From: a virus
Strand: one strand, 5' to 3'
Length of the DNA stretch: 64,000 bases
Virus record (IMG/VR): IMGVR_UViG_3300023174_000003
Span: 1 to 64,000 of that record
The translations under genes were made by a program, and so were the position numbers. Below are positions 45,475 through 60,037 of this stretch, piece by piece (positions within the stretch are counted from its first letter, which is position 1; each line of letters opens with the position of its first letter). The notes under the pieces were generated by a model. It saw only the letters and a list, made by a program, of their open reading frames with translations, had not been told where the DNA came from and did not search any database.

Positions 45475-47786
45475 TCAGTTGGTACCCTCCAGTTCGTCGG
45501 CGATGTCGAGCAGGCCAGTGCGTACACATTCCTCAGCTTCCCACACTCCTCTTTCGTAATCATTTAGATAAGAACGAAGCGTCTTTGGCGGCACTATTTG
45601 ATCAGCAGCAGCACGTAGGGCGGTTGCCAGTGCAGGACCAGCTAGGTCATTGTTGGTGCTGTAGTATGCTTTACGCACCGCTTGCGCTGCGGGGGAAAGT
45701 TCAGTCATGGACGGTGGCCTCATATCCTTCAGCCATTAGCGATGCTGACAATGCCATTGCTAATTGCTTGGTGTACCGCTTTGTGCCGCCAGCGACCATA
45801 TCGGTCACGGTCCAGCGTGTGTGGTTTGTCCAGACGACAATGCGCTCATTGCCTTTCTGAAAGAAGACTGATCGGGGCTTACTCATTGGTGGTCTCGGGA
45901 ATGGGTTGGTACTGTGGCAGCCATTGGCCGTGCTTGTCGGTAAAGCCAGCCTCATACAGGAACTGTTTAGCGGCGATGGCGTCACCGGCCATAGCACGTT
46001 CCATCAGGGTTGGAGCGGTAATGGCGTCTGCCATGTCTTCAAGGGTGCTGGCTGGAACGGCATAGAACGATTCCATGTCGTCGTATTGGGCCTCGGTATC
46101 GGCTAGGTGGCGCAGAACAGCGGCAATGCCGTGATGAATGCTGTATCCCTCGTAAGAGCTGGCAGCTTGCTCAAACTCGTCAACTAGGCGTTGGGCGCGA
46201 GAGTCGCTAGTCACGGGGCCTCGGGGATGTATAGGGCGTTGGCTGGTAGCCAGTGGGTGTAGTCATACATCTCAGCTCTTGTTCTAGTTCGGATGTAGAT
46301 CCAACGCCACATCTGTCCATCGTTATCCCATAACCAACAGTAACCATCTTTGTTAACATCTTTTGGACCGGGCAATCTGCTGTCAAATGGAATAGGAAAA
46401 AACTCATCCGTGGGCTCCACCGGATCCTCAGTCATGGCTGCTCCCCAGCGGAGATGATTGGTGATCTTGTTGCGACGTTTCTGCGTCTGCCAGACGAGCG
46501 TGAGGTAAGCGTTTATGACAGAAGCGGCAAGTAGGCGATCTTTCATGTCAAAGCAAGCATCTTTTGATGCGTACCTGAGAGCGTGCTCCAAGTCAATAAG
46601 TCTGTCTCCAGGGATGGGCCACGCTGTTCCGTCAAAGTGAACGAACGGGCTACCATCGGGAATGGTGATGTCAGTCATTAGATCTCCTCTCCAGTGTTGT
46701 TGGCAAGTGAACTATCTGGTTTGACCGGATAGTTGCCCCAGCGGGCAAGTACAGCGCGGGCGTAGTCGAGGGCGCCTGTGTTCAAGCTGACACGGAATAT
46801 GCCAGGCTTGACTTGGCCGCCAGTTGCATCACTGCAGACTTTGGCTGCGTAGCTGAACTCATCCAGCATTGTTTCGGGCATTAGTTTTAGCAGCTCTTCA
46901 TCAGTCGGCACCACCGGCTCGGGCAACTTGTAAGGCAAACTTACAGGTCGCTTGGCCAAGTTGTAACAACGGCGGCCAAAATCCACAAGATCGCTGTCAA
47001 ATGTGGGACCGTGGATTGACCAAGCCAATCGCAACAGCTCTTCATCAGTCGGCACCACCGGCTCGGGTTGGGCTAGGACAGCGCGGGCATCCTCGACGGA
47101 CTGAAACAGCGCCTGTTCATGGTGGTCGGGCCACTTCCCGCCATGTTCTTCATACGCCTCCACCAGTCGCTGTAGTTCGGAGCGGTAGTCGGGGTTAGTC
47201 ATTGAGGGCCTCCAGTGCGCGGCGGATGGTGTCCATTGCAGTGTCGTCCAAGTAAGGCTTGTTGCTGTTGACCAATGCCAGCGCCTGCTCCTTCAAACTC
47301 GGCGGCTCAGCCAGGGCGGCGCGGGCGCGGCACAAAAGAGGACCGCACTCTTGATAAGTCAGGGGTAGTGATTTAACTACTACTTTTGCCTCTAGCGTTG
47401 CGCAAAGCTCAGCGCACAGGGCGCGGAAGTCAGTCATTGAGGGCCTCCAGTGCGCGGCGGATGGTGTCGTAGGTGGTGTCGTCAATCTTGTCTCTGTCGT
47501 AAGCATCAGCAAGCTCGTGAAGCGCCTGCTCCTTCAAGTTTGGCGGCTTGGGGCGGCGGGCGGCGCGGAGCCTGTCGGACGCCGGCTCATAACCTGGGTG
47601 GTAGATGTGCTTGTCAATCCACTCACAACACGCCTCCAGCTCCTGGTCGGCACCCCATTGGGAAGCTTTAGTAATAGCTTCTCTAAATGTTTTTGAATTT
47701 AGGAGGTTGTGAGTAGGATCAGTCTTAAACTGATTCCAGATTGAATCCACCAGCTCAGGCGGTGGGGTGATTGGGTCGTTAGTCAT
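45475..47786 (-). other. GC-richer mosaic island of short coupled ORFs (45475-45723, 45879-46214, 46211-46678, 46678-47202, 47195-47437, 47430-47786)
   Basis: visibly higher G+C; overlapping start/stop coupling; exact internal repeats. Confidence 0.65.
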
Positions 47787-47817
47787 TAGATTTATTTGAT
47801 TTGAGTAAGGTGGATAA

Positions 47818-47851
47818 GCTGGACTTACATAAGTAAATACTTAATGCCAGC
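47818..47851 (-). promoter_or_regulatory. family-5 bulged stem-loop leader, copy 1
   Basis: GCUGG-CA-[hairpin]-GUAAGU-CCAGC. Confidence 0.7.
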
Positions 47852-47872
47852 ACAATATAACGTTAGTATTAT

Positions 47873-48208
47873 CTAACACCCATAGTAGTCAAGTATTAGC
47901 TCAGCCAACTTAATGGCTAATACTTTAGATGGGATAGTAAGTATTGAGCTTAATCCCCATTTACTGGTAGCTTCTTTTACTTTTTCTTGGTAGTTCAAGT
48001 CAATACCACTATCATCAAAATTAATTATTAACTTAGCAATGTATGATGTTGTTGTTTCATCATCTTCAGGAAGTTCAATGTCATGGGTCACAGTAACTGA
48101 ACTTGCAATTACCTTAGGTTCTGGTTGTGATAGTTCTTCTGCCCATGATGTAAATGGTTTGCCGTTCAAGAAAACTTTATTAGCTGGTTGTTGGAGTGCC
48201 ATGATCAA
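47873..48208 (-). CDS. hypothetical protein
   Basis: ORF track. Confidence 0.55.
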   Translation of the reverse strand: MIMALQQPANKVFLNGKPFTSWAEELSQPEPKVIASSVTVTHDIELPEDDETTTSYIAKLIINFDDSGIDLNYQEKVKEATSKWGLSSILTIPSKVLAIKLAELILDYYGC

Positions 48209-48507
48209 TAGATGTCGTTAGTGGGAGTAAGTTCTAGATCTGAGGACAGAAGCATAATGCCTGCCTCAGCAATAAGCTTGCGAGTTGCATCTTGTCCAAA
48301 AAATTTAAGTAGATCTTGCAACATACTTTTTTTATCATCTGTGTATCCAGTTTCAAATATCAATGCACAAAGGGTAAGCAATTTAGCAACAGGTAGTTGT
48401 CCTATTATTTCATCAGCAGCCAATGGAATTAGATCATCCCATTTGTCCTCAGGTATTGCAGCATACAATGCATCAACTTGTTCTTGATAGTCAGCAGAAA
48501 TTTCCAT
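48205..48507 (-). CDS. hypothetical protein
   Basis: ORF track. Confidence 0.55.
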   Translation of the reverse strand: MEISADYQEQVDALYAAIPEDKWDDLIPLAADEIIGQLPVAKLLTLCALIFETGYTDDKKSMLQDLLKFFGQDATRKLIAEAGIMLLSSDLELTPTNDIY

Positions 48508-48582
48508 GGTGTTGAATGAATGGACAAGGATAGTGTAGTGGAACTAAGGCCAGTGGTTAGCTGACCTTAGCTTTATTTAATG

Positions 48583-48948
48583 TTATGTTACAGGCGTAGC
48601 TTGAGTCTCATGAGTCTCACCCATCATGCCATTCTCCTTGAGGCGATCAAGCATTTGACACATGATCGTTGCATGCTCATGGGTTTTATCCATAAATGCC
48701 TGAGCACGGGCAGCTGATATAGTATGGACTGTACCGTTGGCTTCTACATAAGCCCAACTTCCGTCAGGCTGTGGCTGCCCCTGGAGCGCAAGCCGTTCTG
48801 AGTTACGTACATAACGTAGCTCTAGATTGTGACGGTCAGTTAATCCTTCGTTATCAATCCAGGTTGCACCTAGGTTATAACGTTTGTCATCATCCATGTA
48901 GGCATGGACTTGTGGAATGAGGCCAGTAAAGCAAGATAAAATTGACAT
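48583..48948 (-). CDS. hypothetical protein
   Basis: ORF track. Confidence 0.6.
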   Translation of the reverse strand: MSILSCFTGLIPQVHAYMDDDKRYNLGATWIDNEGLTDRHNLELRYVRNSERLALQGQPQPDGSWAYVEANGTVHTISAARAQAFMDKTHEHATIMCQMLDRLKENGMMGETHETQATPVT

Positions 48949-48970
48949 GAGTTAAGTGCAGTGGAATGTC

Positions 48971-49003
48971 TGGGGCTTACGTCAGGTTGGCGCTGACTGC
49001 CCA
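48971..49003 (-). promoter_or_regulatory. family-5 element, copy 2
   Basis: UGGG-CA-GUCAG..CUGAC-GUAAGC-CCCA. Confidence 0.7.
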
Positions 49004-49011
49004 ATGGTTGG

Positions 49012-50715
49012 TCAGTTAGATACTAGGTCCTTCTCACGGATCTGTAAAGCTTCTTGGAATATACCTTGATATTTCTCACGTTCTATAGATGTCAATGATC
49101 TGTTACTTGGTCCTGCAATCTGTTCTACATGCATGGTGCCATTGGATACCTTGAGTTGTATTGTGAATACAGGCTTGTTGTCAACCATACATAAGACAAT
49201 GAATTGTTTCTTAGCTTTTATAAGATTGGCATATGTTGATGATGCACCTACACAATTACGTACTGCTTGCCCCCATTGTGCAAGCTGATGAGTATCTATG
49301 GGTTGAATGAATGTCCAGATCTCATCAGCAAGTTTTACTTTGACAGGAACAGGGAATAAATCCTGTGGTAGTTTTTGGTTTGGGTTACTTATCTTCCAGG
49401 CTTCTGCTTGTACATGATCATGGAACTCAGTGTAACGCCAACGCCTAGGCGGAGTAAGTTCTTTACCTGCAGCTAATACATTATTAATCATGTCCATTGT
49501 ATCTCTAAATAAATAGAATGTAAGCATATAACAATTCAGTTGATTATCTTTATGCCTATTACTTGGCTTTTCATCTTCTATATATTTGTTTAGCATATTA
49601 AATAATGATGCCACTGGTAGGTTGGTTGCTAGCCATTTCTTTGCTAACGAATCAGTTTTATAATAAGCGATTGAATGGATACGGCCAATAGATAAAAACA
49701 TATTGGTTTGTATTCCAGTCTGTAAATAATCCATAGGGCAGTCAGGATATATATCAAGGATATCTAGAATCCAAGCCAAAGTATGTATAAGTTTTTTGTG
49801 TATAGAACTAATTTCTTTCTTGGACTTAGTGGCTGGATCATTGAACGTATTAATAATTAATTGACATTGCTCATTGATGTAACGTTTAAACCATGGCTTA
49901 CCAAGTTTCTCTTGCATAACAGTAAATGATCTATCTAAATTTTGGGTATACCGTAGCCTTAGTATTTCTATATACAATTCAAAGCTAGGCACAATGTTTT
50001 GATTCTTTGGTATTGATGTATGATGTAATTCTAATAGTTCATGGTAATTATTTTTAGCCGTATCTATTCTGTCCCATACACCACCATCAGTATAAGTAGG
50101 TATTGAATTTATAATGGCTTCTCTGAATGGTTGTATTACACTTGGTCTTATCTCTTTACCTTTTGTATTGTATCCTTTGAAGTTACCATGTTCCCAATAG
50201 TGTGATTGACATCCATTAGATATATCTTCTGCTGTTACAAACTTTGTATAGACATTGAACTCTATGCGTCCATACTTTTTGATAGTAGTATCTTTTCTAT
50301 TTATGTCTCTAATGTATACCTGTTTGCATGTAGTTTCTGTATTCTTAAATGCATAAGTAAACCCATAGATATAATCTTCACCTGGGTTAGGTAACCATGC
50401 TGCAATCCACAAGGATTCGTAGTGGTACACAACAGCTTTAAGTTTTGTTGTGGCTACCATATCTTTATCATATGTAACACGACTAAAAGTATGATAGCGA
50501 TATGGAACTTCTTCTTGGTTAATAGCAATTATTGCTGCAAGTAAATTGCTAGGCATAACAATGTGTGCAGGGATAATATCATTAGGCAAGCCAAGATGAA
50601 AGCGTGGTTTCTTAGGCTTGCTTACAGGAGTAGTAGCAGCTTTAGCCAAAGCTTTTAACTTTGGATCATAAGCTAATAGTTCTGTGCGCAGGTTGGCGGG
50701 TAGTTGGAATTGCAT
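49012..50715 (-). CDS. PcfJ-like domain protein
   Basis: EFHDH...P.DTHQLAQWGQAVRNCVG...Y......TIQL...VEQI.G..N. Confidence 0.8.
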   Translation of the reverse strand: MQFQLPANLRTELLAYDPKLKALAKAATTPVSKPKKPRFHLGLPNDIIPAHIVMPSNLLAAIIAINQEEVPYRYHTFSRVTYDKDMVATTKLKAVVYHYESLWIAAWLPNPGEDYIYGFTYAFKNTETTCKQVYIRDINRKDTTIKKYGRIEFNVYTKFVTAEDISNGCQSHYWEHGNFKGYNTKGKEIRPSVIQPFREAIINSIPTYTDGGVWDRIDTAKNNYHELLELHHTSIPKNQNIVPSFELYIEILRLRYTQNLDRSFTVMQEKLGKPWFKRYINEQCQLIINTFNDPATKSKKEISSIHKKLIHTLAWILDILDIYPDCPMDYLQTGIQTNMFLSIGRIHSIAYYKTDSLAKKWLATNLPVASLFNMLNKYIEDEKPSNRHKDNQLNCYMLTFYLFRDTMDMINNVLAAGKELTPPRRWRYTEFHDHVQAEAWKISNPNQKLPQDLFPVPVKVKLADEIWTFIQPIDTHQLAQWGQAVRNCVGASSTYANLIKAKKQFIVLCMVDNKPVFTIQLKVSNGTMHVEQIAGPSNRSLTSIEREKYQGIFQEALQIREKDLVSN

Positions 50716-50738
50716 GTGAGTGAATAATGAGTGGGATG

Positions 50739-50767
50739 CAGGCAGTTTAACGTCATGCCTGAGGACG
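50739..50767 (-). promoter_or_regulatory. family-1 element, copy 5
   Basis: CGUC-CUCAGGCAU-GACG-UUAAAC-UGCCUG. Confidence 0.8.
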
Positions 50768-50938
50768 TGGACCTAGTCGTATTCGATACCGAATTGCACC
50801 CGTTCTTGGTACGTAGTATGGAACTTGGTTAGCTTAGGTAAGCGCTTAGCAAATCCAAAGGCTAGGTATATGCGTCCCCGTGGTCCACGGAAGACAAGAT
50901 ACCAAGGCCTGAACTCAATAATGAATCCAATCATTCCG

Positions 50939-51220
50939 TTAGATCTCCGATAGGTCGACATCGATCCAGTCAATGTCTTGTTCACGTACCCATGCTACTA
51001 ACTCACTGAACGCAACTTTGTTATCAGTGGTTTCAAGTTTGTCTGGGTCAGTGGGAGGTTGGACCTCTACAACAAAGTTAGCATGGCATAGGCCAGGCTT
51101 GAACTCTGCTGGTTCCTCCCACGTGGCAGGACTTACCTGGATCCTATCATCAATCCATGCTTCCACATAAACGAAGTACTCGCCATCTAATGGAATGACA
51201 TCAATGTTCTCAATGATCAT
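50939..51220 (-). CDS. acidic hypothetical protein
   Basis: ATWEEPAEF.PGLC. Confidence 0.6.
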   Translation of the reverse strand: MIIENIDVIPLDGEYFVYVEAWIDDRIQVSPATWEEPAEFKPGLCHANFVVEVQPPTDPDKLETTDNKVAFSELVAWVREQDIDWIDVDLSEI

Positions 51221-51222
51221 GA

Positions 51223-51435
51223 TCAGACCTCCTGTAGTTGTTGTGTAGCCACAGCCACTGGCTGCTGAAACGCAGAGCCAGGACCATAGCGTTGGACTAG
51301 ATCTGGGAATGCACCTAGGATACGTTGACGGTTAGTGGGATCAGCATACCGTAGTGCGTTGGCCATAGTACTGACGAACTTGCCGCCGTACTTGGTCATG
51401 GTCTCGGTCATGTGATAAATCTCAGTGCTGGTCAT
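51223..51435 (-). CDS. small phage protein (YGG.FV..LA.A...AD..N...I..AFP type)
   Basis: start reset to the ATG after family-1 copy 6. Confidence 0.65.
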   Translation of the reverse strand: MTSTEIYHMTETMTKYGGKFVSTMANALRYADPTNRQRILGAFPDLVQRYGPGSAFQQPVAVATQQLQEV

Positions 51436-51456
51436 GAGTTGAGTTGCGGTGGGACA

Positions 51457-51485
51457 CAGGCAGTTTAACGTCATGCCTGAGGACG
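51457..51485 (-). promoter_or_regulatory. family-1 element, copy 6
   Basis: identical to copy 7 over 55 bp (51431-51485 = 52817-52871). Confidence 0.85.
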
Positions 51486-51496
51486 GGTCAGCTTAG

Positions 51497-51733
51497 TTAC
51501 AGAATCTTTATGTTGCGTTTGCTTAGGCCAGTACCAGGCAATCCAATGGATGCATGGACGCCTGACTCACGAGCATTCAGTGTGAGTTGCAATGGACCTA
51601 ACTGGAATGATTTAGAGAATGACTTGATGCCATTCTCCGTAATGTTGATACCATTCCAAGTCTTGTCAAAGTTGAACAATGATTTCTTGTGAGCCATCTT
51701 AGATACCTTCAATGCATGGGTGGATGTTGTCAT
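51497..51733 (-). CDS. DUF4236-like protein
   Basis: INITENGIKSFS.....G....N....G..ASIGLPGTGLS. Confidence 0.65.
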   Translation of the reverse strand: MTTSTHALKVSKMAHKKSLFNFDKTWNGINITENGIKSFSKSFQLGPLQLTLNARESGVHASIGLPGTGLSKRNIKIL

Positions 51734-51902
51734 CGTTCATATTTGTCATGGTAAATTTTTCACCAGTGACAGGATCAATGAAGCCTCCAACGAATCCGAT
51801 CCCATTACGGTCAGCGGATTCTTTCATTAGTGCCACAAACCTCATCGCTTCAAGACGACGTAAGCTTGTGGCATCAGGCACAGTCAGATCAGAGTTAGAC
51901 AT
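51699..51902 (-). CDS. hypothetical protein
   Basis: ORF track. Confidence 0.55.
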   Translation of the reverse strand: MSNSDLTVPDATSLRRLEAMRFVALMKESADRNGIGFVGGFIDPVTGEKFTMTNMNDDNIHPCIEGI

Positions 51903-51934
51903 TGGATGGGGAAGTTAAGGTTTGATTAATGAAC

Positions 51935-52243
51935 TTAGGATTTTACTAGATTCTGTTTGACATCCATACTAAATATCATGTCAGCATCAGTGGGATCTTC
52001 ATATCCTGTAACATCGATAGGATCAATGTCAGGAAAGCAGACCGGCTGGTCGAATTCAACATTGACTAGTACCGTCAGATGTTCCTTGGACAGGCTTACC
52101 CAATCTTCAGTCAACCAATTGATGGCATGTTGCTTGTTCACCAGATATACGGTGCGATCATGCCATACGTCATCGTTCTTGATCTTGTAATCAATGATGG
52201 CACCGAAGTGTGTACCACCGATAGGCAGTGGGGCATTAGTCAT
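51935..52243 (-). CDS. hypothetical protein
   Basis: ORF track. Confidence 0.55.
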   Translation of the reverse strand: MTNAPLPIGGTHFGAIIDYKIKNDDVWHDRTVYLVNKQHAINWLTEDWVSLSKEHLTVLVNVEFDQPVCFPDIDPIDVTGYEDPTDADMIFSMDVKQNLVKS

Positions 52244-52279
52244 TAGCTTTCGTGGTGATGGTGGACAGGGGTGAGGGGA

Positions 52280-52579
52280 CTATGCGAATGGCGTAAAGCC
52301 TGGTGCATCTATCAACTCTTGTAGTGTGCATACAGCATCTGCTGCTAGCTCACTGAACACAACCTTGTTATCAGTGACATATTCATTTGACTGATCCTCT
52401 ACTACTTCACATCCGCTATCTTCTAGCTCATCGCAGAACTCATCCCATGTCATGTGCTTGCCATAGACATGAGCGTATCTGCCCGTGGCATCTGCCACTA
52501 ATGCAACATAGTGATTCATTGTACTCATTTCAGGGGTGGTTGTACTCATTACTTGTGTAGCTCCTGGTGTTGTTGCCAA
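52280..52579 (-). CDS. acidic hypothetical protein (start uncertain)
   Basis: ORF track. Confidence 0.55.
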   Translation of the reverse strand: MATTPGATQVMSTTTPEMSTMNHYVALVADATGRYAHVYGKHMTWDEFCDELEDSGCEVVEDQSNEYVTDNKVVFSELAADAVCTLQELIDAPGFTPFA

Positions 52580-52821
52580 TGGGCAGCATGAATCTCTGCT
52601 GCTGTAACAGCGGACTCACCTCCGGTGTTGTCATAGAGATACTCAGGTGTTGGGTCATAGCCCGTCACCTCTTCTAATGCATCGATGCAGTCTGAGATAG
52701 TATCCAGCATCCACTGTGGTGCAGAATACATTTGGTCTTTGGCTTCCTCTTGTTTGAGGACAGCGTTCATCTTTTTGATCCAGCGTTCGCATGCGCACTC
52801 TGGAGTCTTGTCTAAAGTCAT
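52549..52821 (-). CDS. hypothetical protein
   Basis: start reset to the ATG after family-1 copy 7. Confidence 0.6.
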   Translation of the reverse strand: MTLDKTPECACERWIKKMNAVLKQEEAKDQMYSAPQWMLDTISDCIDALEEVTGYDPTPEYLYDNTGGESAVTAAEIHAAHWQQHQELHK

Positions 52822-52842
52822 GAGTTGAGTTGCGGTGGGACA

Positions 52843-52871
52843 CAGGCAGTTTAACGTCATGCCTGAGGACG
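52843..52871 (-). promoter_or_regulatory. family-1 element, copy 7
   Basis: CGUC-CUCAGGCAU-GACG-UUAAAC-UGCCUG. Confidence 0.85.
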
Positions 52872-52944
52872 AGCTATTAGGTTTCAGTATTTTGTGGCAT
52901 TTCAACATTTGTTGAAAGCCTATAGTAGTACTGATGTATTACCG

Positions 52945-53298
52945 TTAGATCATTCCTAAGAGTGACAGCCAGCTATCAGGGTGATCTGGTTCCACCTCAT
53001 CGTAGGTAGGTGTCAGGCAAATGGAATCAAACGTCCATTCCTCTATGTCTTCCATTGTTGGCACCTCGTACCAACCAATGAGATCATCTTGTTCATCTTT
53101 GTAGTTACGTCCTTTGGGTATCCAATAGTACATGAGTACTCCCTTCTTATTCTTACGGACAGCACCGTTATACGGCAGCTGACCTTTCAGTGGATCCTGG
53201 AAGCAGCACTCGACAGGATATTGTTCCTGTCCATCTGCTTCTGTCAATGGCTCGTAGCCTAGTGCTGTGGCCATCTGTTGCTGTTCAGGTAATAGCAT
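52945..53298 (-). CDS. conserved phage hypothetical protein
   Basis: PT.EDIEEW.FDS.C.TP..D.VEPDHPDSWL..LG.I. Confidence 0.65.
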   Translation of the reverse strand: MLLPEQQQMATALGYEPLTEADGQEQYPVECCFQDPLKGQLPYNGAVRKNKKGVLMYYWIPKGRNYKDEQDDLIGWYEVPTMEDIEEWTFDSICLTPTYDEVEPDHPDSWLSLLGMI

Positions 53299-53319
53299 GG
53301 TGTGAATGCGATTGGATGT

Positions 53320-53345
53320 CTGCGTTGTAAGGATGCGCAGCCCCC
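53320..53345 (-). promoter_or_regulatory. family-2 leader element, copy 1
   Basis: GGGGG-CUGCG-CAUCCUUACAA-CGCAG. Confidence 0.7.
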
Positions 53346-53353
53346 TGTTAATC

Positions 53354-53737
53354 TTATTTAAGTTGTTGTTTTCTGGTACGTGTACGTGGTACCTTTGCTG
53401 GTGTAGCTACCGGCTCTGGTACATCTGCAACGTACTCTAGATTCCAGTTAGCAATAGTATCTATTGCATTAATAAACTTGCCACAATACTGTGTAAAGCT
53501 TATAACAAATTCTTCGCCGTGGTCAGCTTGCCACTGACGATAGGTCTTGATGCTCCACTGGACCACAGCAATGATTACTGCTGTGATAGTTACCAGTGTC
53601 ATAACAATGTTGTAGGCGACACGTCGCCAATTAACTTTCTGTATCTGTGTCAGTGCATCATCCACTGGTGGAAAGCTGTAGGTCATGTTAGTCATGGTGA
53701 ATCTCCTGTGGGTGTGATTGTAGTTGTGTGATGTCAA
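53354..53737 (-). CDS. membrane hypothetical protein
   Basis: single TM segment. Confidence 0.55.
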   Translation of the reverse strand: MTSHNYNHTHRRFTMTNMTYSFPPVDDALTQIQKVNWRRVAYNIVMTLVTITAVIIAVVQWSIKTYRQWQADHGEEFVISFTQYCGKFINAIDTIANWNLEYVADVPEPVATPAKVPRTRTRKQQLK

Positions 53738-53924
53738 TACCTGCGGCTGCCATTACGACAGTTGCAATAATAAATGTCATCAACACAAAGGTTGTGGCAT
53801 CTAATACTTTGCCGAGCATTTTTGAGCTCAATACTTTTCTAAGCATTTTTAAGTGCATGATAGATTTGCGTTGGTACGAATCAAGTTCAACGTAACGGCC
53901 TACAATTTTATGGTAGTTCTTCAT
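53688..53924 (-). CDS. membrane hypothetical protein
   Basis: single TM segment. Confidence 0.5.
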   Translation of the reverse strand: MKNYHKIVGRYVELDSYQRKSIMHLKMLRKVLSSKMLGKVLDATTFVLMTFIIATVVMAAAGIDITQLQSHPQEIHHD

Positions 53925-54118
53925 TACATTCCATATAGTATGTCACTGTCTTCGTCCTCGTTAATAAGCTCAAATTGAGACCACAAACGATAAGTTTCTA
54001 TAGTGTTTGCAATGCCGTGGGTGTGGCTTGCATATTTTCGTGCTTCATTTATATCGTTAAAACATGTATCAATGTTCTTGTCAACAGGGTGATACACAAT
54101 GTGAACGTAGTTAGCCAT
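53924..54118 (-). CDS. hypothetical protein
   Basis: follows family-2 copy 2. Confidence 0.55.
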   Translation of the reverse strand: MANYVHIVYHPVDKNIDTCFNDINEARKYASHTHGIANTIETYRLWSQFELINEDEDSDILYGM

Positions 54119-54145
54119 TAGATTCTCCGTTGTAGTTGTGAATGC

Positions 54146-54171
54146 CTGCGTTGTTAGGATGCGCAGCCCCC
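54146..54171 (-). promoter_or_regulatory. family-2 element, copy 2
   Basis: GGGGG-CUGCG-CAUCCUAACAA-CGCAG. Confidence 0.7.
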
Positions 54172-54188
54172 TCGTGTTAGATTAACTT

Positions 54189-54490
54189 GGGGTGAAGAAG
54201 AACCGTGTCAGCCCCTTCATACAAGGGAACCAGGATTTTTACGGTCTCTCCTGGTTGGTAACAGACGAGCTGTGCCACTGATCATGGGGCAGCTCCTCCC
54301 TTATCTTAATTCTTGCAGACATGTATAGGGTCAGGACGCAATAGTCCTTCAGCTCGTGCGGCGGGCGCCCTATGCCTGCTACAACTTTAGGTTCATCACG
54401 CCTAAAGAAGTTTGTTGGAACTCTTCTGAGTTCCTAGACGAGTCAACTCCTGGCCAGGAGGGTCAGCTGAACCCTCCAAAGCATAGCAGG
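54189..54490 (+). ncRNA. candidate structured ncRNA (about 300 nt)
   Basis: ORF-free; at least 7 consecutive stems; wobble pairs are G-U on the plus strand. Confidence 0.55.
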
Positions 54491-54495
54491 TTTAA

Positions 54496-54750
54496 CTAAT
54501 CTTCGATGCCATACTCCTGCTCATATTTAAGCAAGAGTGCGTTTCGGTCAACACACTTCTTGAGGAATTGTGCCAATGGATGCAAAGCATCCCACTCTAA
54601 TGCACCGTCTTGCCACTGGAAGTACATCTCCAGTAGCTCGGTACGTTTCTGTTCAATAGACCAATCAACACAAGGGTGTTGAACAGTCGAGTCTCGCCTG
54701 GCAAGCAGACGTGCATCTTTTATGATGCGTTCAACCGTAGCACTGGTCAT
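54496..54750 (-). CDS. hypothetical protein
   Basis: start reset to the ATG after the leader structure. Confidence 0.6.
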   Translation of the reverse strand: MTSATVERIIKDARLLARRDSTVQHPCVDWSIEQKRTELLEMYFQWQDGALEWDALHPLAQFLKKCVDRNALLLKYEQEYGIED

Positions 54751-54755
54751 GATTG

Positions 54756-54831
54756 TGAGTAAGCCACACTCAGTGTGTGGCAATAACTGGACCAGGGTTT
54801 GCACCTGGTCACCCGCTTTAACGGATCAGCT
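54756..54831 (-). promoter_or_regulatory. T-loop three-way junction (54785-54831) plus pseudoknot-like unit (54756-54784)
   Basis: AGCUG-AUCCG(UUAAAG)CGGGU-GACCAGG(UGCAAAC)CCUGGUC-CAGUU then AUUGCCACAC-AC-UGAG-UGUGGC-UUA-CUCA. Confidence 0.7.
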
Positions 54832-54987
54832 TGCTTGACGCATCTCCACTAATAGCTCAACCAGTATCTGGTTGTAACTTTTACTAGATTCTTTGGAGTG
54901 ATATTCTGCTATCACTTGTGCATCATCTAACTCTTTGTTGCTGAAGGTGCCCATAAACTTGAACAGTTGTTCGTAAGTAAGTGTCAT
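54826..54987 (-). CDS. 53-aa hypothetical protein (below cutoff)
   Basis: MTLTYEQLFKFMG...EMRQAS*; its stop lies in the junction stem. Confidence 0.55.
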   Translation of the reverse strand: MTLTYEQLFKFMGTFSNKELDDAQVIAEYHSKESSKSYNQILVELLVEMRQAS

Positions 54988-54996
54988 TAAATTGAT

Positions 54997-55077
54997 GCTG
55001 TGCAGGTGCCCATCTCCTGCGGACTAGGCAATACTGAGTAGGGGATTCGATCCCCCGGCATCACGCCTGGTACTCAG
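54997..55077 (-). promoter_or_regulatory. tRNA-like junction (55034-55077) plus family-3 unit (54997-55032)
   Basis: CUGAGUA..GGC(GUGAU)GCC.GGGG(AUCGAAU)CCCC-UACUCAG then AUUGCCUAGUCCGCAGGAGAUGGGCACCUGC. Confidence 0.7.
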
Positions 55078-55244
55078 AACGGAATCTCATCAAACGACTC
55101 CACACATGAATCAGTAGCTGGATCATCAATGACCCAGCCTTCTTCCTCTGCTTCTGCTTCTAACACCCATTGAGGTGTGTTATTTGCTAACCAGATATCA
55201 TGAAGGAGTTGTTCTTGATGAATGTTGCTAGGTTGAATACGCAT
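55074..55244 (-). CDS. 56-aa acidic protein ending FDEIPF (below cutoff)
   Basis: MRIQPSNIHQEQLLHDIWL...DSCVESFDEIPF*. Confidence 0.6.
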   Translation of the reverse strand: MRIQPSNIHQEQLLHDIWLANNTPQWVLEAEAEEEGWVIDDPATDSCVESFDEIPF

Positions 55245-55254
55245 TTAACTGTGA

Positions 55255-55336
55255 GCTGTGCAGGTGCCCATCTCCTGCGGACTAGGCAATGACTGTGGGA
55301 GGGTTTGCACCTCCCAACCCGCTTTAACGGATCAGC
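55255..55336 (-). promoter_or_regulatory. T-loop junction (55292-55336) plus family-3 unit (55255-55290)
   Basis: GCUG-AUCCG(UUAAAG)CGGGU-UGGGAGG(UGCAAAC)CCUCCCA-CAGU; 36-bp exact repeat of 54997-55032. Confidence 0.72.
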
Positions 55337-55559
55337 AACCAAGCATCTCGTCCACGTAGGACTTGATGACTTGGAGTTGGTCTCGGTTAAGTGTCTGGCT
55401 ACGGCCATACTCCAAAAGGTCAAGGACCTGGAGCATGACGCTTTCGCCAGCCTCTTCACGAGACGGTACGCCACACATGTCGAAGATCTCATTACGAGAC
55501 ATCTCAGTGATGTCAACGCAATCGATCTTACGAACGGTGGCGATGGTGGTCTTAGTCAC
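55332..55559 (-). CDS. hypothetical protein
   Basis: ORF track; its stop lies in the junction stem. Confidence 0.6.
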   Translation of the reverse strand: MTKTTIATVRKIDCVDITEMSRNEIFDMCGVPSREEAGESVMLQVLDLLEYGRSQTLNRDQLQVIKSYVDEMLGC

Positions 55560-55579
55560 GGTGTTACTCCGTAGGTGAG

Positions 55580-55613
55580 CTTGGACTTACACTGCTGAAG
55601 TGCAGCTGCCAAG
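55580..55613 (-). promoter_or_regulatory. family-5 element, copy 3
   Basis: CUUGG-CA-GCUGC..GCAGU-GUAAGU-CCAAG. Confidence 0.7.
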
Positions 55614-55638
55614 ATCGTGACTGACCACCGAGTTGTCT

Positions 55639-55663
55639 GCTGCGTTTAACGTCCAGCTCGACG
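55639..55663 (-). promoter_or_regulatory. family-1 element, divergent copy 8
   Basis: CGUC-GAGCUG-GACG-UUAAACG-CAGC. Confidence 0.65.
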
Positions 55664-55814
55664 CCTAATCTATTGGTGAATCTAGAACCTAACTCTCGTA
55701 CATGAACGAAAGCTACCGATTCTAGCACCACCTAACCTAGGATGATACGTATTCGTATTATAAATGTTACAATACGTGTTAATATCACCACAGGTTAGTG
55801 GTGTGTGGCAACAG

Positions 55815-56084
55815 TCAGTTAACTTGCTTAGCACTGGCAATCGCTTTGCCATTCTTCACAAGTACTGATAACTTATACTCAGGCGAGCAGCTATCTTCTA
55901 GGCAATCACTTGGGTCGTAACACTCAACTGCAATTGCATTGTGGAGATCCACAAGCCATTGCTTAACGTTCGTATCAAACTGACCCAAGACTTCAAGGTG
56001 AATGCTCACCTTCTTGCCTCTCATCAGATACTCTGCTGCCTGGTCGCAACGAGCAAAATACACTTCAGCTTGTGATAGTTGCAT
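55815..56084 (-). CDS. hypothetical protein (first gene of the early block)
   Basis: follows family-2 copy 3. Confidence 0.6.
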   Translation of the reverse strand: MQLSQAEVYFARCDQAAEYLMRGKKVSIHLEVLGQFDTNVKQWLVDLHNAIAVECYDPSDCLEDSCSPEYKLSVLVKNGKAIASAKQVN

Positions 56085-56108
56085 GATTTGAATGCGAGTG
56101 TGTACAAC

Positions 56109-56133
56109 CTGCGTTGCAAGGATGCGCAGCCCC
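56109..56133 (-). promoter_or_regulatory. family-2 element, copy 3
   Basis: GGGG-CUGCG-CAUCCUUGCAA-CGCAG. Confidence 0.7.
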
Positions 56134-56143
56134 CTATATATAC

Positions 56144-56168
56144 GAACTACCCCGTAGTTCTTTTTTTT
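56144..56168 (+). terminator. terminator-like hairpin
   Basis: GAACTAC-CCC-GTAGTTC followed by T8. Confidence 0.55.
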
Positions 56169-56287
56169 CTCCCCACATTCTGTTACTTGTGGGTGGTAGG
56201 AGAACAGTCAGAAAATTTGCACCCCAATTAAAGATTGTATAGGGTGTTTTTGTATGTAAAATCCCTACTTAGCCCAAAAATTTAGAC

Positions 56288-56317
56288 AAAAAAGCCGGGT
56301 TTAATCCCGGTGTTTTT
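56288..56317. terminator. possible bidirectional terminator after 56338..56550
   Basis: A-run, CCGGG-TTTAAT-CCCGG, T-run. Confidence 0.55.
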
Positions 56318-56337
56318 GTAAATTTTAAAAATATTTA

Positions 56338-56550
56338 TTATTGATTTTTACTTTGCTTATATTTTAGTGTTGCATTCATAGCTTTGTTGAATGCCTCTTG
56401 ATCTGGCAGCTCGTAAGCTAGGTGTTTCTTGGATTCTGTTACAAAATCACGTACCTCTAGAGAGTCATGACCTTTTTTAGCCATTTCTACAGCTTTATTT
56501 TTTATTGCCTCTAGTCCTTCTACTCTTTTTTGCCGTGTTCCAGCGTCCAT
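56338..56550 (-). CDS. hypothetical protein
   Basis: ORF track. Confidence 0.6.
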   Translation of the reverse strand: MDAGTRQKRVEGLEAIKNKAVEMAKKGHDSLEVRDFVTESKKHLAYELPDQEAFNKAMNATLKYKQSKNQ

Positions 56551-56641
56551 TTATAGGTAAAATTAGTTTCCTTCTTTTACTATAACCTAGATTAATCAAC
56601 ATTAGAATATTTACAGAACAAAATTAAGACAATAAACTCTA

Positions 56642-59600
56642 ATGCCTCTTTCATCTACTGATTTTTACGCATATAGCCGTGCTACTGGGACACCTTACCC
56701 CGAAGATGCAGAAGAAAGAGCTGATTTAGCTCCTGAAGTTTACGAATATCGTCAAAATCAATTAAAAGGACAGGACGAAGGTTTTAATTTAACAAATGCC
56801 CTGGGTGTTGGTGCAGCTTTGGCCGGTGTTGGCGCTGGTGGATATGCTTTATCTCGTGCTCTAGGACGCAAAGTACCTGCCACTGCAACATCAACGTCTC
56901 GTGCAGCTAATGAAGGACTTGTTCGTACTAATCTTGACAGGGTTCGCACTGAACCTACTTTTAATCGGGTAGAAACAGAAGTTGTTAAACCCTCTAAAAC
57001 AGTTGATACTACTCAAAATTTTACACCTAGGCAATATATTGAAAACCAAGGTGCTGTTGAACCAGATCCCTGGTACATAAAAACAAATAGAGTACGTTCT
57101 CCCAGAGCTCAAGTGGAGCGGCCCCAGGCGCAGCTCCTTCTTCCTGGGATGACAGAACTAGAAGAGTCTTTAGAAGGGTCTACGTATAGCAAGTACTTTA
57201 CAAATAAACCTGCAGGATCAGTTGCTGCCATGGCAACACAATCAGCCAGGGAGCAAATAACAAAAGCAGAAGATCAATTAAATAGGACTAACCCAGAATC
57301 AGAATCTTATATTTCAAGACTAAGGTCAATGCGAGAAACTAAATCAGAACAAGCTCAAGACCTAGCTAATAGTGTCCTCAGGGCTCTTCAAGCTGGAACA
57401 GAACAAGAACACTATGCTCTAGACACACGTCAAGAAGATGTTCTTGCTACACATTCACAAGAAGCCCTAGATAGAGCCAAACAAGGGATGCCTGCTCCTA
57501 AACCAGCAGCAATTTCAAAAGATTGGAGCAATAAGTTATTTAATCAAAATGGGATGCTTCGTGACGATGTCTTGTTAAATGTTATCGGTGATGCCAACGT
57601 ACTTCCTCTTGATATCTCAAAAGCATTATTAGAAAGCAGTTCTGTTAATCCCCGAGACAGCTTTAAAGGTAGACCCTACAAAAATATACAACAAACCCAG
57701 GGAAGGTATGATCCTAAAGCAGTTTTTGCTGCTACAAAACATATTCGCGAAAATTTACTTACAGAAGATTATCAAGACACGATTAAAAACTATTTGATTA
57801 CTGGTAACATTCAACCATTGCAAAGTAGGGGTTTTGGTTATACCACTCAGAGTCCAACAAGAACTCAGTTATTGGTTATTTCTAAGGGAAAAGAAGGAGA
57901 ACCTAAATTCCAAGCAAAAGTAGCTGCCCCAGCCCGTTATTCAAGAAGCGACCTGGAGCCATTGTTCCAAGATAAAACAACAGGAGAAATGGTTACAGCT
58001 CAGCAACTTGCTGCAAACGTAGCAAAATTTAATTCTGAAGCTGCGGAAGCAGGCACAGGTTATGGAGCTGAAATTGGACAAGCTGTTGCATTTGTACCAA
58101 GGGAACCAATTGCCCCCTTTGGATCTCTGCCCGGAGTTTCAGCTAGTGGGCCAATAAAGAATAAAAATACTGGCGTAGATTATGCAATTGGAGGCATAAA
58201 AGAATACGGCTCTACACCTGGGGCAGAAGATTTTTCAGGTGCTAACCCGCTGCCAACGTATTCAACAACACAAGAATATTTAGATGCAGAGCACATAGGC
58301 GTAACTAAATATGGAAAATTATATGCCAAAGTTAAACCTGTTTCTTTAAGCACTAGCCCATATAGCAATAGGATGAATATGGATTATGGAAATATTTTTC
58401 ATAAAAATCCAATAAGCGGACAACCCTGGTCCAGTGAACAAGATGTTGCACAATTTGTGCATAACATGCATTCTAATTTTAATGCTAAAGTAGCCACTGC
58501 TTCTGAACGTCAATATGGCACAGATCTTTTTCATGAGCCCTTCTTGGTTACTTTACATGGCACAGACGAAAAAGGAAGAACGCGTCAAACTTTATTAGAT
58601 CCTTATGAGCCAGTAGGATCTCAAGGAACACTAGCGTCTCAGATGCAAGACGCATTATTACAAAAAGGTATTATTCAAGAAGTACATACGGAAGAAGGTG
58701 CATCTTATCTCAGGCAAGCAAGATATGATGTTCCAATTCCAGAAGGGGAAAGAACGCCCGTTTTAGGTTTTGGCGACATTGGAAAACATCAACAAACAAT
58801 AGGAAAAGGAACAGCAAATCATTATGAATATCTGCAAAATGTGCAAGATTTATATGAAAGACAAACAGGTAATAAATTAGCAGACATTCAAGTTGCTCTT
58901 GACCTGGCCAAGACAAACGCAGGCCCTTACCTTGGTGGACCGTCTTCTAATCCATTCTTGAATCGGGCTCTTACCACTGCCAATACTCTTACTCAGATAT
59001 CTGAACCTACTCGTTTACGGATGCGTGAACCAGGCCAGGGAGAGTCTGCAGCAGAACGTTATGGTGTTGGCACAAGAGCAATGACTCCCCCATCTGAAGC
59101 TGAAAGAGCAGCAACTGCAGCAAGAGAGTCTAGAACACTTTCTTTCCTGGAACAAAATCCCGAAATGATGGCTCGGCTGTATCCAGAAAAAACAGCTGGT
59201 CTCGCGGCAAAACAACAACTTGCAAAACGACAAGGTCAAAAAGTTGCCCCCGCTAATGAATGGGCTGATACACGTAATGTTTCTGCATCAGAAGCCCAAG
59301 CTTTATATGAAGGATCAAAAGGCCTTTCAGAATATGAAGAATCACAAATCTATCCTGAAGCAACAGCACGTCCAGAGGAACCAGTTGAAAGGCGTCAACA
59401 AACATATACTCCTGCTTTTGAAGACATAGCTGTTCAGGGTCCAGGCCTTTCTTTGACACGAGCTGAAGCAAAAGCTGTACAACGCCCCGGTGGTGACTTG
59501 AGCCAACAGATTCAAGGACGCGCCCTGGAGCAAGCACGTGAACGTGGACGCATGGCAAGAGCAGCAGCCCTTTCTCCCGCTGGTACTGTTGAAAGAGGAG

Positions 59601-60037
59601 CATTAAGAGTTTCCCCTGGAACGTACTTAGAAACAGGATTAGGTGGATTAACTGAATCTGAAGTTATCAGTCGTTATGGACGCACCTCAAGTCAATTAGC
59701 ACAAGAAGCAAATCGAGCAATGTATCAAGCTGCAAGACAGCAAGGATTACCGTCAATGCCTGCTAGTATAAGAACACAAGTTCCAAGACCAGGTATGAAT
59801 AGTCCTACAGGTGGAGTAACTCAACCGTTTATTCCAGGTATTCTAGAAACAAGTCCCAAAATTACTCCTGGTTACGCTGATGAGCTTGCATCATATATGG
59901 CAAAACGTGCTCCATCAAGAATGGAACAAAGCATTAGGCAAAATGTAGCTCAATCAAAACAAGCACGTCTTGCATCTGATTTCCCTAATGCATTTAAAGC
60001 TGCAATACAAAAACAATTAAGATTACCAATCTTTTGA
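56642..60037 (+). CDS. large putative internal virion protein
   Basis: 1131 aa, A/Q/E-rich with a GxxxG-like segment; heads a late block. Confidence 0.65.
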   Translation: MPLSSTDFYAYSRATGTPYPEDAEERADLAPEVYEYRQNQLKGQDEGFNLTNALGVGAALAGVGAGGYALSRALGRKVPATATSTSRAANEGLVRTNLDRVRTEPTFNRVETEVVKPSKTVDTTQNFTPRQYIENQGAVEPDPWYIKTNRVRSPRAQVERPQAQLLLPGMTELEESLEGSTYSKYFTNKPAGSVAAMATQSAREQITKAEDQLNRTNPESESYISRLRSMRETKSEQAQDLANSVLRALQAGTEQEHYALDTRQEDVLATHSQEALDRAKQGMPAPKPAAISKDWSNKLFNQNGMLRDDVLLNVIGDANVLPLDISKALLESSSVNPRDSFKGRPYKNIQQTQGRYDPKAVFAATKHIRENLLTEDYQDTIKNYLITGNIQPLQSRGFGYTTQSPTRTQLLVISKGKEGEPKFQAKVAAPARYSRSDLEPLFQDKTTGEMVTAQQLAANVAKFNSEAAEAGTGYGAEIGQAVAFVPREPIAPFGSLPGVSASGPIKNKNTGVDYAIGGIKEYGSTPGAEDFSGANPLPTYSTTQEYLDAEHIGVTKYGKLYAKVKPVSLSTSPYSNRMNMDYGNIFHKNPISGQPWSSEQDVAQFVHNMHSNFNAKVATASERQYGTDLFHEPFLVTLHGTDEKGRTRQTLLDPYEPVGSQGTLASQMQDALLQKGIIQEVHTEEGASYLRQARYDVPIPEGERTPVLGFGDIGKHQQTIGKGTANHYEYLQNVQDLYERQTGNKLADIQVALDLAKTNAGPYLGGPSSNPFLNRALTTANTLTQISEPTRLRMREPGQGESAAERYGVGTRAMTPPSEAERAATAARESRTLSFLEQNPEMMARLYPEKTAGLAAKQQLAKRQGQKVAPANEWADTRNVSASEAQALYEGSKGLSEYEESQIYPEATARPEEPVERRQQTYTPAFEDIAVQGPGLSLTRAEAKAVQRPGGDLSQQIQGRALEQARERGRMARAAALSPAGTVERGALRVSPGTYLETGLGGLTESEVISRYGRTSSQLAQEANRAMYQAARQQGLPSMPASIRTQVPRPGMNSPTGGVTQPFIPGILETSPKITPGYADELASYMAKRAPSRMEQSIRQNVAQSKQARLASDFPNAFKAAIQKQLRLPIF

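What the first reader, a model, noticed from the sequence alone, without database searches (positions are those of the whole stretch)
47818..55613. Family 5: bulged stem-loop with invariant CA / GUAAGY core and fully exchanged arms
Seen at 47818-47851, 48971-49003 and 55580-55613 (33-34 nt each). The outer stem varies (GCUGG/CCAGC, UGGG/CCCA, CUUGG/CCAAG). The inner hairpin is unrelated in sequence (UAAGUA/UACUUA, GUCAG/CUGAC, GCUGC/GCAGU). The junction GG-CA...GUAAGY-CC is constant. This is the signature of a protein- or ligand-recognised internal loop, or a nuclease site. Copy 3 is in tandem with family-1 copy 8.
Basis: seen in the sequence. Interest (0 to 1): 0.75.

Follow-up and report, generated by a model that had tools for sequence, protein, structure and literature searches.

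The report
Cyanophage intercistronic bulged-hairpin RNA module
The three look-alike hairpins are real copies of an undescribed folded RNA module that freshwater cyanophages place about 28 bases ahead of early genes and directly ahead of a tRNA gene. It most likely guards or insulates the RNA behind it, but this is untested.

Summary
Observation confirmed. All three copies exist, on the minus (sense) strand at 47818-47851, 48970-49004 and 55580-55613. Each lies in an intergenic spacer 20-31 nt upstream of the next start codon. A descriptor finds exactly these 3 in the 79.8-kb genome; shuffles give a mean of 0.19.

The phage is an S-EIV1-like freshwater cyanophage. A covariance model built from 8 copies finds 279 matches in 79 related contigs, 277 of them on the sense strand. 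In complete genomes all strong (28 bits or more) matches lie in one 8-10 kb early block.

- **Structure:** the outer helix is 99.4% paired, and its third pair is G-C, U-A or A-U but never mismatched. The loop letters C and UAAG and the flanking GG/CC are essentially invariant. The inner hairpin varies from 9 to about 60 nt.
- **Strand:** G.U outnumbers A.C 23 to 1 in the inner stem, so the fold is on the sense strand, i.e. RNA.
- **Databases:** there is no Rfam match, no paper, and no copy in 185,579 prokaryote genomes.
- **Context:** the module also sits 1-4 nt ahead of tRNA-Leu genes. It is near-mutually exclusive with a coremin-like pseudoknot that occupies the same slot.

Best reading (about 0.4): a self-contained RNA roadblock or insulator at the 5' edge of each expression unit. 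A nuclease- or protein-recognition site is the main rival.

This scan already reported the same motif on another genome (e1-5908208).

The parts
47818..47851 (-). Copy 1 of the module. It has a 5-bp outer stem, a CA bulge, a 6-bp inner hairpin flanked by a U/U mismatch, and a GUAAGU bulge.
   Evidence: The covariance models score it at 51 bits and 37 bits. An identical copy is present in relative G001.
48970..49004 (-). Copy 2 of the module. It starts 7 nt after the stop codon of the 567-aa PcfJ-like gene. Its bulge reads GUAAGC.
   Evidence: Orthologous copies with compatible changes (C-G to U.G, U-A to U.G) occur in G001 and G002.
55580..55613 (-). Copy 3 of the module. It lies upstream of a 75-aa gene that starts with GTG and has a GGAG Shine-Dalgarno sequence.
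   Evidence: The same slot is occupied in many distant relatives, with different inner hairpins.
47787..47817 (-). G-poor unstructured leader running from copy 1 to the ATG at 47786.
   Evidence: Leaders behind the module average 7% G, against 15% for other genes.
48949..48969 (-). G-poor leader running from copy 2 to the ATG at 48948.
55560..55579 (-). Leader running from copy 3 to the GTG at 55559. It contains GGAG.
55639..55663 (-). It is context for the finding, not part of the motif.
   Evidence: It carries GACGUUAAAC, identical to 10 consecutive letters of the coremin motif as printed in PMC10520033.

Best explanation
The three sites are copies of an undescribed, self-contained structured RNA module in the polycistronic early transcript of an S-EIV1-like freshwater cyanophage.

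**Anatomy (shown).**
- A 5-10 bp outer helix that always ends in two G-C pairs.
- An asymmetric internal loop: C-A on the 5' strand and (G/A)-U-A-A-G-(U/C) on the 3' strand.
- An inner hairpin of any sequence and of 9 to about 60 nt.
- A G-poor single-stranded leader of about 25-37 nt up to the start codon, or only 1-4 nt up to a tRNA gene.

**Function (inferred).** The module marks and protects the 5' edge of the RNA unit behind it. It would act as a structural roadblock or insulator against 5'-end-dependent decay, meaning RNase J 5'-3' exonuclease or RNase E scanning from upstream ends. It would also keep the leader independent of whatever gene lies upstream. The conserved loop would build a compact tertiary fold rather than serve as a sequence tag.

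**Secondary consequence (inferred).** The conserved core acts as a portable junction at which gene cassettes are gained and lost.
For: **RNA, not DNA.**
- 277 of 279 model matches are on the sense strand.
- G.U against A.C in inner pairs 1-3 is 23 to 1.
- The spacing between the two conserved halves varies from 9 to 61 nt, which excludes a -35/-10 type duplex site.

**Selected structure.**
- The outer helix is 99.4% paired. Its third pair is G-C 67, U-A 37, A-U 5, with 0 mismatches.
- The second inner pair is C-G 71, U-A 34, U.G 4, with 0 mismatches.
- 0 of 500 shuffles reach the observed covariation.

**Tied to the downstream unit.**
- Distance to the next start: median 28 nt, interquartile range 25-37.
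- Distance from the upstream stop is far more variable: interquartile range 5-162 nt.

**Not translation-specific.** In 9 of 10 relatives tested, a tRNA-Leu(UAA) gene begins 1-4 nt after the copy that follows the PcfJ-like gene.

**Generic rather than factor-specific.**
- The orthologous junction in relative G003 holds a coremin-like pseudoknot instead.
- That pseudoknot has the same strand bias (247:11) and the same distance to starts (median 24 nt).
- The two modules rarely co-occur: only 8 of 194 family-5 copies have a pseudoknot within 90 nt.
- Coremin is an experimentally proven exonuclease and ribosome roadblock (PMC6546385 and PMC10520033).

**Self-contained.** No conserved sequence lies outside the module. 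There is no excess pairing of the bulge or of the apical loop with flanking RNA.

**Confined to early genes.** All strong (28 bits or more) matches in four 98-100% complete genomes fall in one 8-10 kb block.

**Cassette junction.** A 1.4-kb insertion in G002 is bracketed by two copies, and homology breaks at the module's 3' edge.
Against: - Protection is therefore entirely inferred.
- The module has no pseudoknot, whereas the structurally solved exonuclease-resistant RNAs work by a pseudoknotted ring (PMC12397905).
- Its predicted stability is modest, and minimal copies have an inner stem of only 2-3 bp.
- Strict conservation of C, UAAG and GG/CC across phages whose marker protein is only 37-44% identical is equally what a protein- or nuclease-recognition site would show.
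- In copy 3 and its orthologues the module sits in tandem behind the pseudoknot, which would be redundant if both did the same job. Tandem xrRNAs do, however, exist in flaviviruses.
- The coremin likeness of the neighbouring module is itself untested in bacteria.
Confidence: 0.4

Rival explanations
1. The module is a recognition site for a specific endoribonuclease or RNA-binding regulator, host or phage. That factor would cut the early polycistronic RNA into units or shut it off. It would work like the T7 RNase III sites or T4 RegB targets.
For: - The single-stranded letters C and UAAG and the closing pairs are invariant while the helices vary. This is the classic signature of a protein site.
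- Copies are intergenic, on the sense strand only, and restricted to the early block.
- The module lies immediately 5' of both mRNAs and tRNAs.
- It is absent from host-type genomes, which fits a phage-specific signal.
Against: - About 48 ORFs of this phage were scanned and none has an RNase, RNA-binding or Cas6-like domain.
- Total helix length is 7-11 bp in most copies, too short for RNase III.
- An unrelated pseudoknot fills the same slot. That would need a second factor, or one factor that reads two different folds.
Confidence: 0.25
2. The module is a translation element for Shine-Dalgarno-less initiation. It would dock the 30S subunit or a ribosomal protein, or fence off a standby site about 28 nt upstream of the start codon.
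For: - The distance to starts is fixed.
- The leaders are G-poor and unstructured.
- Only 8% of the following starts have an SD-like motif.
- The 3' half plus closing pairs (GGG...UAAGUCCC) resembles the universal 16S rRNA hairpin GGG-UUAAGU-CCC. This resemblance is from memory and was not tested.
Against: - The same module sits 1-4 nt before tRNA genes, where translation is irrelevant.
- SD-like motifs are equally rare (8%) before genes without the module, so it does not substitute for an SD.
- Copy 3 has a good GGAG.
Confidence: 0.15
3. The module acts at the DNA level, either as a hairpin-type promoter (like phage N4 early promoters) or as a folded single-strand recombination site (like integron attC) that moves gene cassettes.
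For: - It lies at the 5' edge of every unit, including tRNAs.
- A cassette insertion is flanked by two copies.
- It is strand-specific, and its terminal structure varies in length as in attC.
Against: - Wobble statistics put the fold on the sense (non-template) strand, whereas the N4 polymerase reads a template-strand hairpin.
- No integrase and no recognisable phage RNA polymerase was found in the ORFs scanned.
- There are no attC core sites.
- The slot-sharing partner is a pseudoknot, which is an RNA-only fold.
- Chimeric outer stems, expected from recombination inside the site, are never seen: 0 mismatches in 109.
Confidence: 0.07
4. The module is a selfish or neutral repeat that spread by duplication and has no function.
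For: There are multiple copies per genome, and they sit at cassette junctions.
Against: - The arms are fully exchanged while the loop letters are kept, in phages as distant as 37% protein identity.
- Copies have a strict orientation and a strict distance to starts.
Confidence: 0.03

Closest known systems
Coremin motif (xrRNA_C) of beny- and cucumoviruses, and its pseudoknotted look-alike in these phages
   Same: It is small, with about 20 conserved letters around helices of free sequence. It is sense-strand only. In these phages the coremin-like knot occupies the same slot 21-28 nt before starts, and it replaces family 5 at an orthologous junction.
   Different: Family 5 has no YGAD-type loop, no GUUAAAC spacer and no second hairpin or pseudoknot. 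Coremin's function was shown with eukaryotic Xrn1 and scanning ribosomes (PMC6546385, PMC10520033), not with bacterial enzymes.
Class 3 plant-virus xrRNAs (dianthovirus, polerovirus, ST9a)
   Same: Both have a P1 helix, a 2-nt 5' bulge, a P2 helix and a conserved purine-rich 3' element that includes A-G-Y (PMC12397905).
   Different: In class 3 the AGY lies 3' of P1, and a pseudoknot between the apical loop and downstream RNA closes the ring. In family 5 the AGY lies between P2 and P1. Loop-to-downstream pairing is no better than in shuffles: 3.34 against 3.23.
RNase III processing sites of the phage T7 early operon
   Same: Both are repeated intercistronic stem-loops with an asymmetric internal loop. 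Both lie a few tens of nt before the next start in a single-strand early operon.
   Different: T7 sites are about 50-60 nt with roughly 20 bp of helix (from my own knowledge). Family 5 usually has 7-11 bp, and its loop letters are far more strictly conserved.
PeSL (promoter-early stem-loop) cassettes of T4-type phages (Arbiol et al. 2010)
   Same: Both are repeated regulatory modules between small early ORFs that also serve as junctions for modular gene shuffling. Compare the G002 insertion bracketed by two copies.
   Different: A PeSL carries a sigma-70 promoter. No conserved -10/-35 element lies in or near family 5.
Integron attC sites
   Same: Both are strand-specific folded sites with conserved unpaired bases, a variable terminal structure and a position at cassette boundaries.
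   Different: Family 5 has no R'/R'' core sequences. No integrase was found. The fold is on the mRNA-sense strand, and its distance to the start codon is fixed.

Membership tests
Any Rfam 15 family | Covariance-model match at the gathering score, or at least E<=5 | tested here: not met
   No hit at gathering score in the whole window. In 45500-56700 at E<=5 the only hit was an irrelevant U6atac match elsewhere.
Coremin / xrRNA_C | A 3-5 bp hairpin with a YGAD or YGNNAD loop, followed by the conserved spacer GUUAAACUAC | tested here: not met
   The family-5 consensus has neither feature. The neighbouring 'family 1' element does carry GACGUUAAAC.
Coremin / xrRNA_C | Stalls a 5'-3' exoribonuclease in vitro | not testable with these tools
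   This needs an enzyme assay.
Class 3 plant-virus xrRNA | A pseudoknot between the apical loop and downstream sequence that closes a ring | tested here: not met
   Best loop-to-downstream complementarity is 3.34 nt against 3.23 in shuffles, over 149 copies. Bulge-to-downstream CUUAC is present in 22 of 187 copies against 13 expected.
Class 3 plant-virus xrRNA | P1 helix, 2-nt J1/2 bulge, P2 helix | tested here: met
   Outer helix, CA bulge and inner helix are all present.
RNase III site (T7 type) | About two turns (roughly 20 bp) of double-stranded RNA | tested here: not met
   The window copies have 5 + 5-6 bp. Minimal relatives have 5 + 2-3 bp.
Kink-turn | A 3-nt bulge followed by tandem sheared G.A / A.G pairs | tested here: not met
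   The short strand is C-A, not G-A. The long strand reads A-G where G-A is required. This was checked by sequence inspection of the consensus.
Sigma-70 promoter / PeSL | -35 and -10 hexamers 16-18 bp apart | tested here: not met
   The conserved halves are 9-61 nt apart. There is no conserved box up- or downstream. Promoter-like sites are not enriched: 24 against 19.9 expected.
N4-type hairpin promoter | A template-strand DNA hairpin of 5-7 bp with a 3-nt loop, plus a virion RNA polymerase | tested here: not met
   The architecture differs. Wobble pairs place the fold on the sense strand, 23 to 1. No polymerase was recognised; that protein search was only partial.
Integron attC | RYYYAAC / GTTRRRY core sites and an IntI-type integrase | tested here: not met
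   The cores are absent from the consensus. No integrase domain was found in about 48 ORFs scanned; not every ORF was scanned.
Riboswitch (ligand-sensing) | An aptamer of sufficient complexity plus an expression platform | tested here: inconclusive
   Minimal copies are about 28 nt with no alternative pairing to the leader. Ligand binding itself cannot be tested here.

The most novel reading that the evidence does not exclude
Family 5 is a new, pseudoknot-free class of nuclease-resistant RNA used by DNA phages of bacteria. Together with the coremin-like knot, it forms an interchangeable toolkit that caps every early cistron and tRNA precursor against RNase J or RNase E. This would be the first programmed 'xrRNA' system outside eukaryotic RNA viruses.
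Probability: 0.3. Interest if true: 0.85.

Novelty: new variant of a known kind. Interest (0 to 1): 0.6.

Why it matters
This is a compact RNA module of 28-60 nt under very strong selection, with hundreds of copies in an abundant but poorly understood lineage of freshwater cyanophages. It has no database entry and no literature.

- **If it blocks bacterial 5'-end-dependent nucleases,** programmed exonuclease resistance would extend from eukaryotic RNA viruses to phages.
- **It could explain gene expression in these phages.** Phages that lack Shine-Dalgarno sequences and recognisable promoters between genes would have a way to keep individual early messages alive.
- **It could be a tool.** It would give synthetic biology a tiny portable insulator for cyanobacteria.
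- **If it is instead a nuclease or protein site,** it points to an unknown early-gene switch.

The cultured isolate S-EIV1 carries two good copies, so either reading is directly testable.

Tried and rejected
- **Duplex sigma-70 or sigma-54-like promoter** (TTGGCA ... GTAAGT). Rejected because the spacing varies from 9 to 61 nt.
- **Pseudoknot of GUAAGU with a downstream ACUUAC.** Seen in some leaders, but not enriched: 22 of 187 against 13 expected.
- **Pseudoknot of the apical loop with the leader.** No excess complementarity.
- **Kink-turn, loop E, UAA/GAN and 11-nt tetraloop-receptor readings of the loop.** The sequence or the strand polarity does not fit. This was by inspection against remembered consensus only.
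- **Host origin.** The commonest exact forms are absent from 185,579 prokaryote species genomes. The exception is one 2.5-kb MAG contig (L109) that looks like phage; 8 other hits lack the inner hairpin.
- **Fourth window site at 51129.** It is coding sequence conserved in frame in relatives, so it is a chance match.
- **Megablast of the region against GenBank phages.** No match.
- **Literature search for the core sequences.** Only unrelated primer hits.
- **IMG/VR scan with a 16-base pattern**. Too unspecific to count copies, so not used.
- **Search for a partner protein.** Pfam and PHROGs on about 48 ORFs, and PDB sequence searches on the 1131-aa and 880-aa ORFs, gave no RNase, RNA-binding protein, integrase or RNA polymerase.

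Full report
**What is there.**

On the window's + strand the three sites read as the reverse complement, and on the minus strand they match the description.
- Copy 1, 47818-47851: a 5-bp outer stem, C-A, a 6-bp inner hairpin, G-U-A-A-G-U, then the outer stem.
- Copy 3, 55580-55613: the same plan.

The minus strand is the coding strand here. A run of small ORFs extends leftward from about 56550, facing a rightward block that starts at 56642. Each copy lies in an intergenic spacer, 31, 21 and 20 nt before the next start codon. Copy 2 begins 7 nt after the stop of a 567-aa PcfJ-like gene.

**Is it more than chance?**

A descriptor requiring both stems, CA and GUAAGY finds exactly these three sites in the whole genome, all on one strand. 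That genome is 79,791 bp, an IMG/VR record with 127-bp terminal repeats. 300 Markov shuffles gave a mean of 0.19 and never 3. A fourth GGACTTAC at 51129 lies in a reading frame conserved in relatives and is a chance match. Folding energies of the single copies are unremarkable, so the argument has to come from comparison.

**Relatives.**

The DNA polymerase is 65.5% identical to that of Synechococcus phage S-EIVl, and the gene order is the same. The phage is therefore an S-EIV1-like freshwater cyanophage.

The PcfJ-like protein first gave three close relatives. As a five-sequence alignment it then gave 79 IMG/VR loci at 31-92% identity, all oriented sense-up.

A covariance model built from 8 copies found 279 matches at E<=1 in these 1.48 Mb. 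Of these, 277 were on the sense strand. A second model built from the 150 best found the following:
- 6-9 matches at E<=0.1 per genome in genomes that are 98-100% complete. All matches of 28 bits or more lie on one strand inside a single 8-10 kb block; two matches of 20-25 bits are the exceptions, one just past the block and one on the opposite strand.
- Only the known three in this genome.
- Two strong copies in the cultured isolate S-EIV1, both in annotated intergenic spacers.

**Structure.**

Counts are over 109 distinct sequences.
- The outer helix is 99.4% paired.
- Its two innermost pairs are G-C in all 109.
- The third pair is G-C in 67, U-A in 37 and A-U in 5, never mismatched.
- The second inner pair is C-G in 71, U-A in 34 and U.G in 4, never mismatched.
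- No shuffle of 500 reaches the observed covariation, and sliding the partners by one column destroys it.

This alignment was fitted to the model, which inflates pairing somewhat. Independent regex-anchored counts give the same picture.

The first inner position is usually a U/U mismatch that alternates with G-C, C-G or G.U. The bulged C and UAAG are essentially invariant. The A of CA and the first and last letters of the 6-nt bulge vary occasionally. The inner insert ranges from 9 to 61 nt.

**RNA or DNA?**

Three results point to RNA.
- The strand bias is extreme.
- In inner pairs 1-3, G.U occurs 23 times and A.C once. The fold is therefore read on the sense strand.
- The variable spacing between the conserved halves rules out a duplex promoter of the -35/-10 kind.

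No conserved box lies up- or downstream of the module. Sigma-70-like sites are not enriched in the region.

**Position and context.**

The distance from the module to the next start has a median of 28 nt and an interquartile range of 25-37. The distance from the preceding stop has an interquartile range of 5-162 nt. The module therefore belongs to the downstream unit.

The intervening leader is G-poor, 7% G against 15% before other genes. It shows no pairing with the module. Shine-Dalgarno-like motifs are equally rare (8%) with and without the module, so the module is not an SD substitute.

In 9 of 10 relatives tested, the copy that follows the PcfJ-like gene is followed within 1-4 nt by a tRNA-Leu(UAA) gene, and another copy then precedes the next ORF. 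A purely translational role is thus unlikely.

**An interchangeable partner.**

At the junction after the PcfJ-like gene, relative G003 carries a small H-type pseudoknot with ...GACC-UUAAAC... instead of family 5. A descriptor for this knot gives the following results:
- 247 sense against 11 antisense hits in the same loci.
- A median of 24 nt to the next start.
- Six copies in this genome, including the one 25 nt upstream of copy 3.

Only 8 of 194 family-5 copies have such a knot within 90 nt, and all 8 are orthologues of copy 3. The two modules are therefore alternatives for one slot.

Earlier notes of this scan (e1-5895015, e1-5910933) likened the knot to the plant-virus coremin motif. I checked this. 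The motif printed in PMC10520033 shares ten consecutive letters, GACGUUAAAC, with the window's knots. Coremin has been shown to stall Xrn1 and scanning ribosomes (PMC6546385, PMC10520033). Family 5 itself meets none of coremin's defining features. It also lacks the pseudoknot that closes the ring in class 3 xrRNAs (PMC12397905).

**Reading.**

Two unrelated folds share one slot at the 5' edge of mRNAs and tRNAs. This argues for a generic, structure-based job rather than one specific binding protein.

I therefore favour, at about 0.4, a roadblock or insulator that shields the downstream RNA from 5'-end-dependent decay and keeps its leader independent of the upstream gene. Cyanobacteria have RNase J and RNase E; this is established knowledge. 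The TIGR00649 (RNase J family) control search listed Synechococcus elongatus among 13 genomes with a match, without saying whether it passed the curated cut-off.

The main rival, at about 0.25, is a site recognised by a nuclease or regulator, as in the T7 RNase III sites or T4 RegB targets. The invariance of the loop fits that reading equally well. No candidate partner protein was found among about 48 ORFs scanned. Translation-docking and DNA-level readings are less likely, for the reasons given above.

**A secondary role as a cassette junction.**

In G002 a 1.4-kb insertion between the PcfJ-like gene and the 121-aa gene is bracketed by two copies. Homology to this genome breaks at the module's 3' edge. 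This is reminiscent of PeSL-mediated shuffling in T4-type phages.

**Novelty and limits.**

- No Rfam family matches.
- No paper holds the core sequence.
- Prokaryote genomes lack the module.
- This scan had already reported the same motif on another genome (e1-5908208), with a similar tentative reading. My analysis was done independently up to and agrees with it.
- Transcript-end evidence, which would decide between the readings, could not be obtained.

Noticed in passing
window 55639-55663, 52843-52871, 51457-51485, 50739-50767, 43742-43767, 36837-36862 (all minus strand): Six copies of a small H-type pseudoknot carrying GACGUUAAAC, the 3' half of the plant-virus coremin motif. In the 79 relatives' loci plus this genome, the descriptor hits 247 sense against 11 antisense sites, at a median of 24 nt before starts.
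   Followed up: partly
window 53331-53345, 54157-54171, 56120-56134 (minus strand): A third leader family with three exact copies of a 15-nt core, GGGGGCUGCGCAUCC. The core opens a CUGCG/CGCAG hairpin 25-35 nt before start codons. One copy precedes the ORF at 55815-56084, the first one after the 56295-56310 terminator.
   Followed up: no
window 56294-56311: A bidirectional intrinsic-terminator-like hairpin with T runs on both sides. It lies right after the first leftward ORF (56338-56550), so the remaining early genes would need read-through or their own promoters.
   Followed up: no
window 54119-54495: A 377-nt ORF-free, hairpin-dense stretch in the early block, with a predicted minus-strand fold of -131.8 kcal/mol.
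   Followed up: no
window 54805-54825, 54988-55073, 55245-55331 (minus strand): Repeated intergenic units. One is UGAUCCGUUAAAGCGGGU, which begins on the upstream stop codon. The other is a shared 36-nt AUUGCCUAGUCCGCAGGAG... element before two small ORFs.
   Followed up: no
L005 11703-13125 (relative G002) compared with window 48949-49011: A 1.4-kb gene insertion in a close relative is bracketed by two family-5 copies. One has CU instead of CA. The homology breakpoints lie at the module's 3' edge.
   Followed up: partly
L041 11990-12065 and the same slot in 8 other relatives: tRNA-Leu(UAA) genes start 1-4 nt after a family-5 copy. This window has no tRNA gene at all.
   Followed up: partly
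window 56642-60037 (+): A 1131-aa ORF at the head of the rightward block has no Pfam, PHROG, PDB-sequence or GenBank-phage match.
   Followed up: partly
L026 35516-35541 (+), i.e. KJ410740 65516-65541: A weak (15.5 bits) family-5-like hairpin with a UUCG loop lies in a late-region intergenic spacer of the isolate S-EIV1. It is the only hint of a copy outside the early block.
   Followed up: no
window 47818-47851 (minus strand): In copy 1 the 5' arm of the inner stem (UAAGUA) resembles the conserved bulge. As a result, the minimum-energy fold pairs the inner 3' arm with the GUAAGU bulge instead. This alternative is seen only in this copy and its G001 twin.
   Followed up: no
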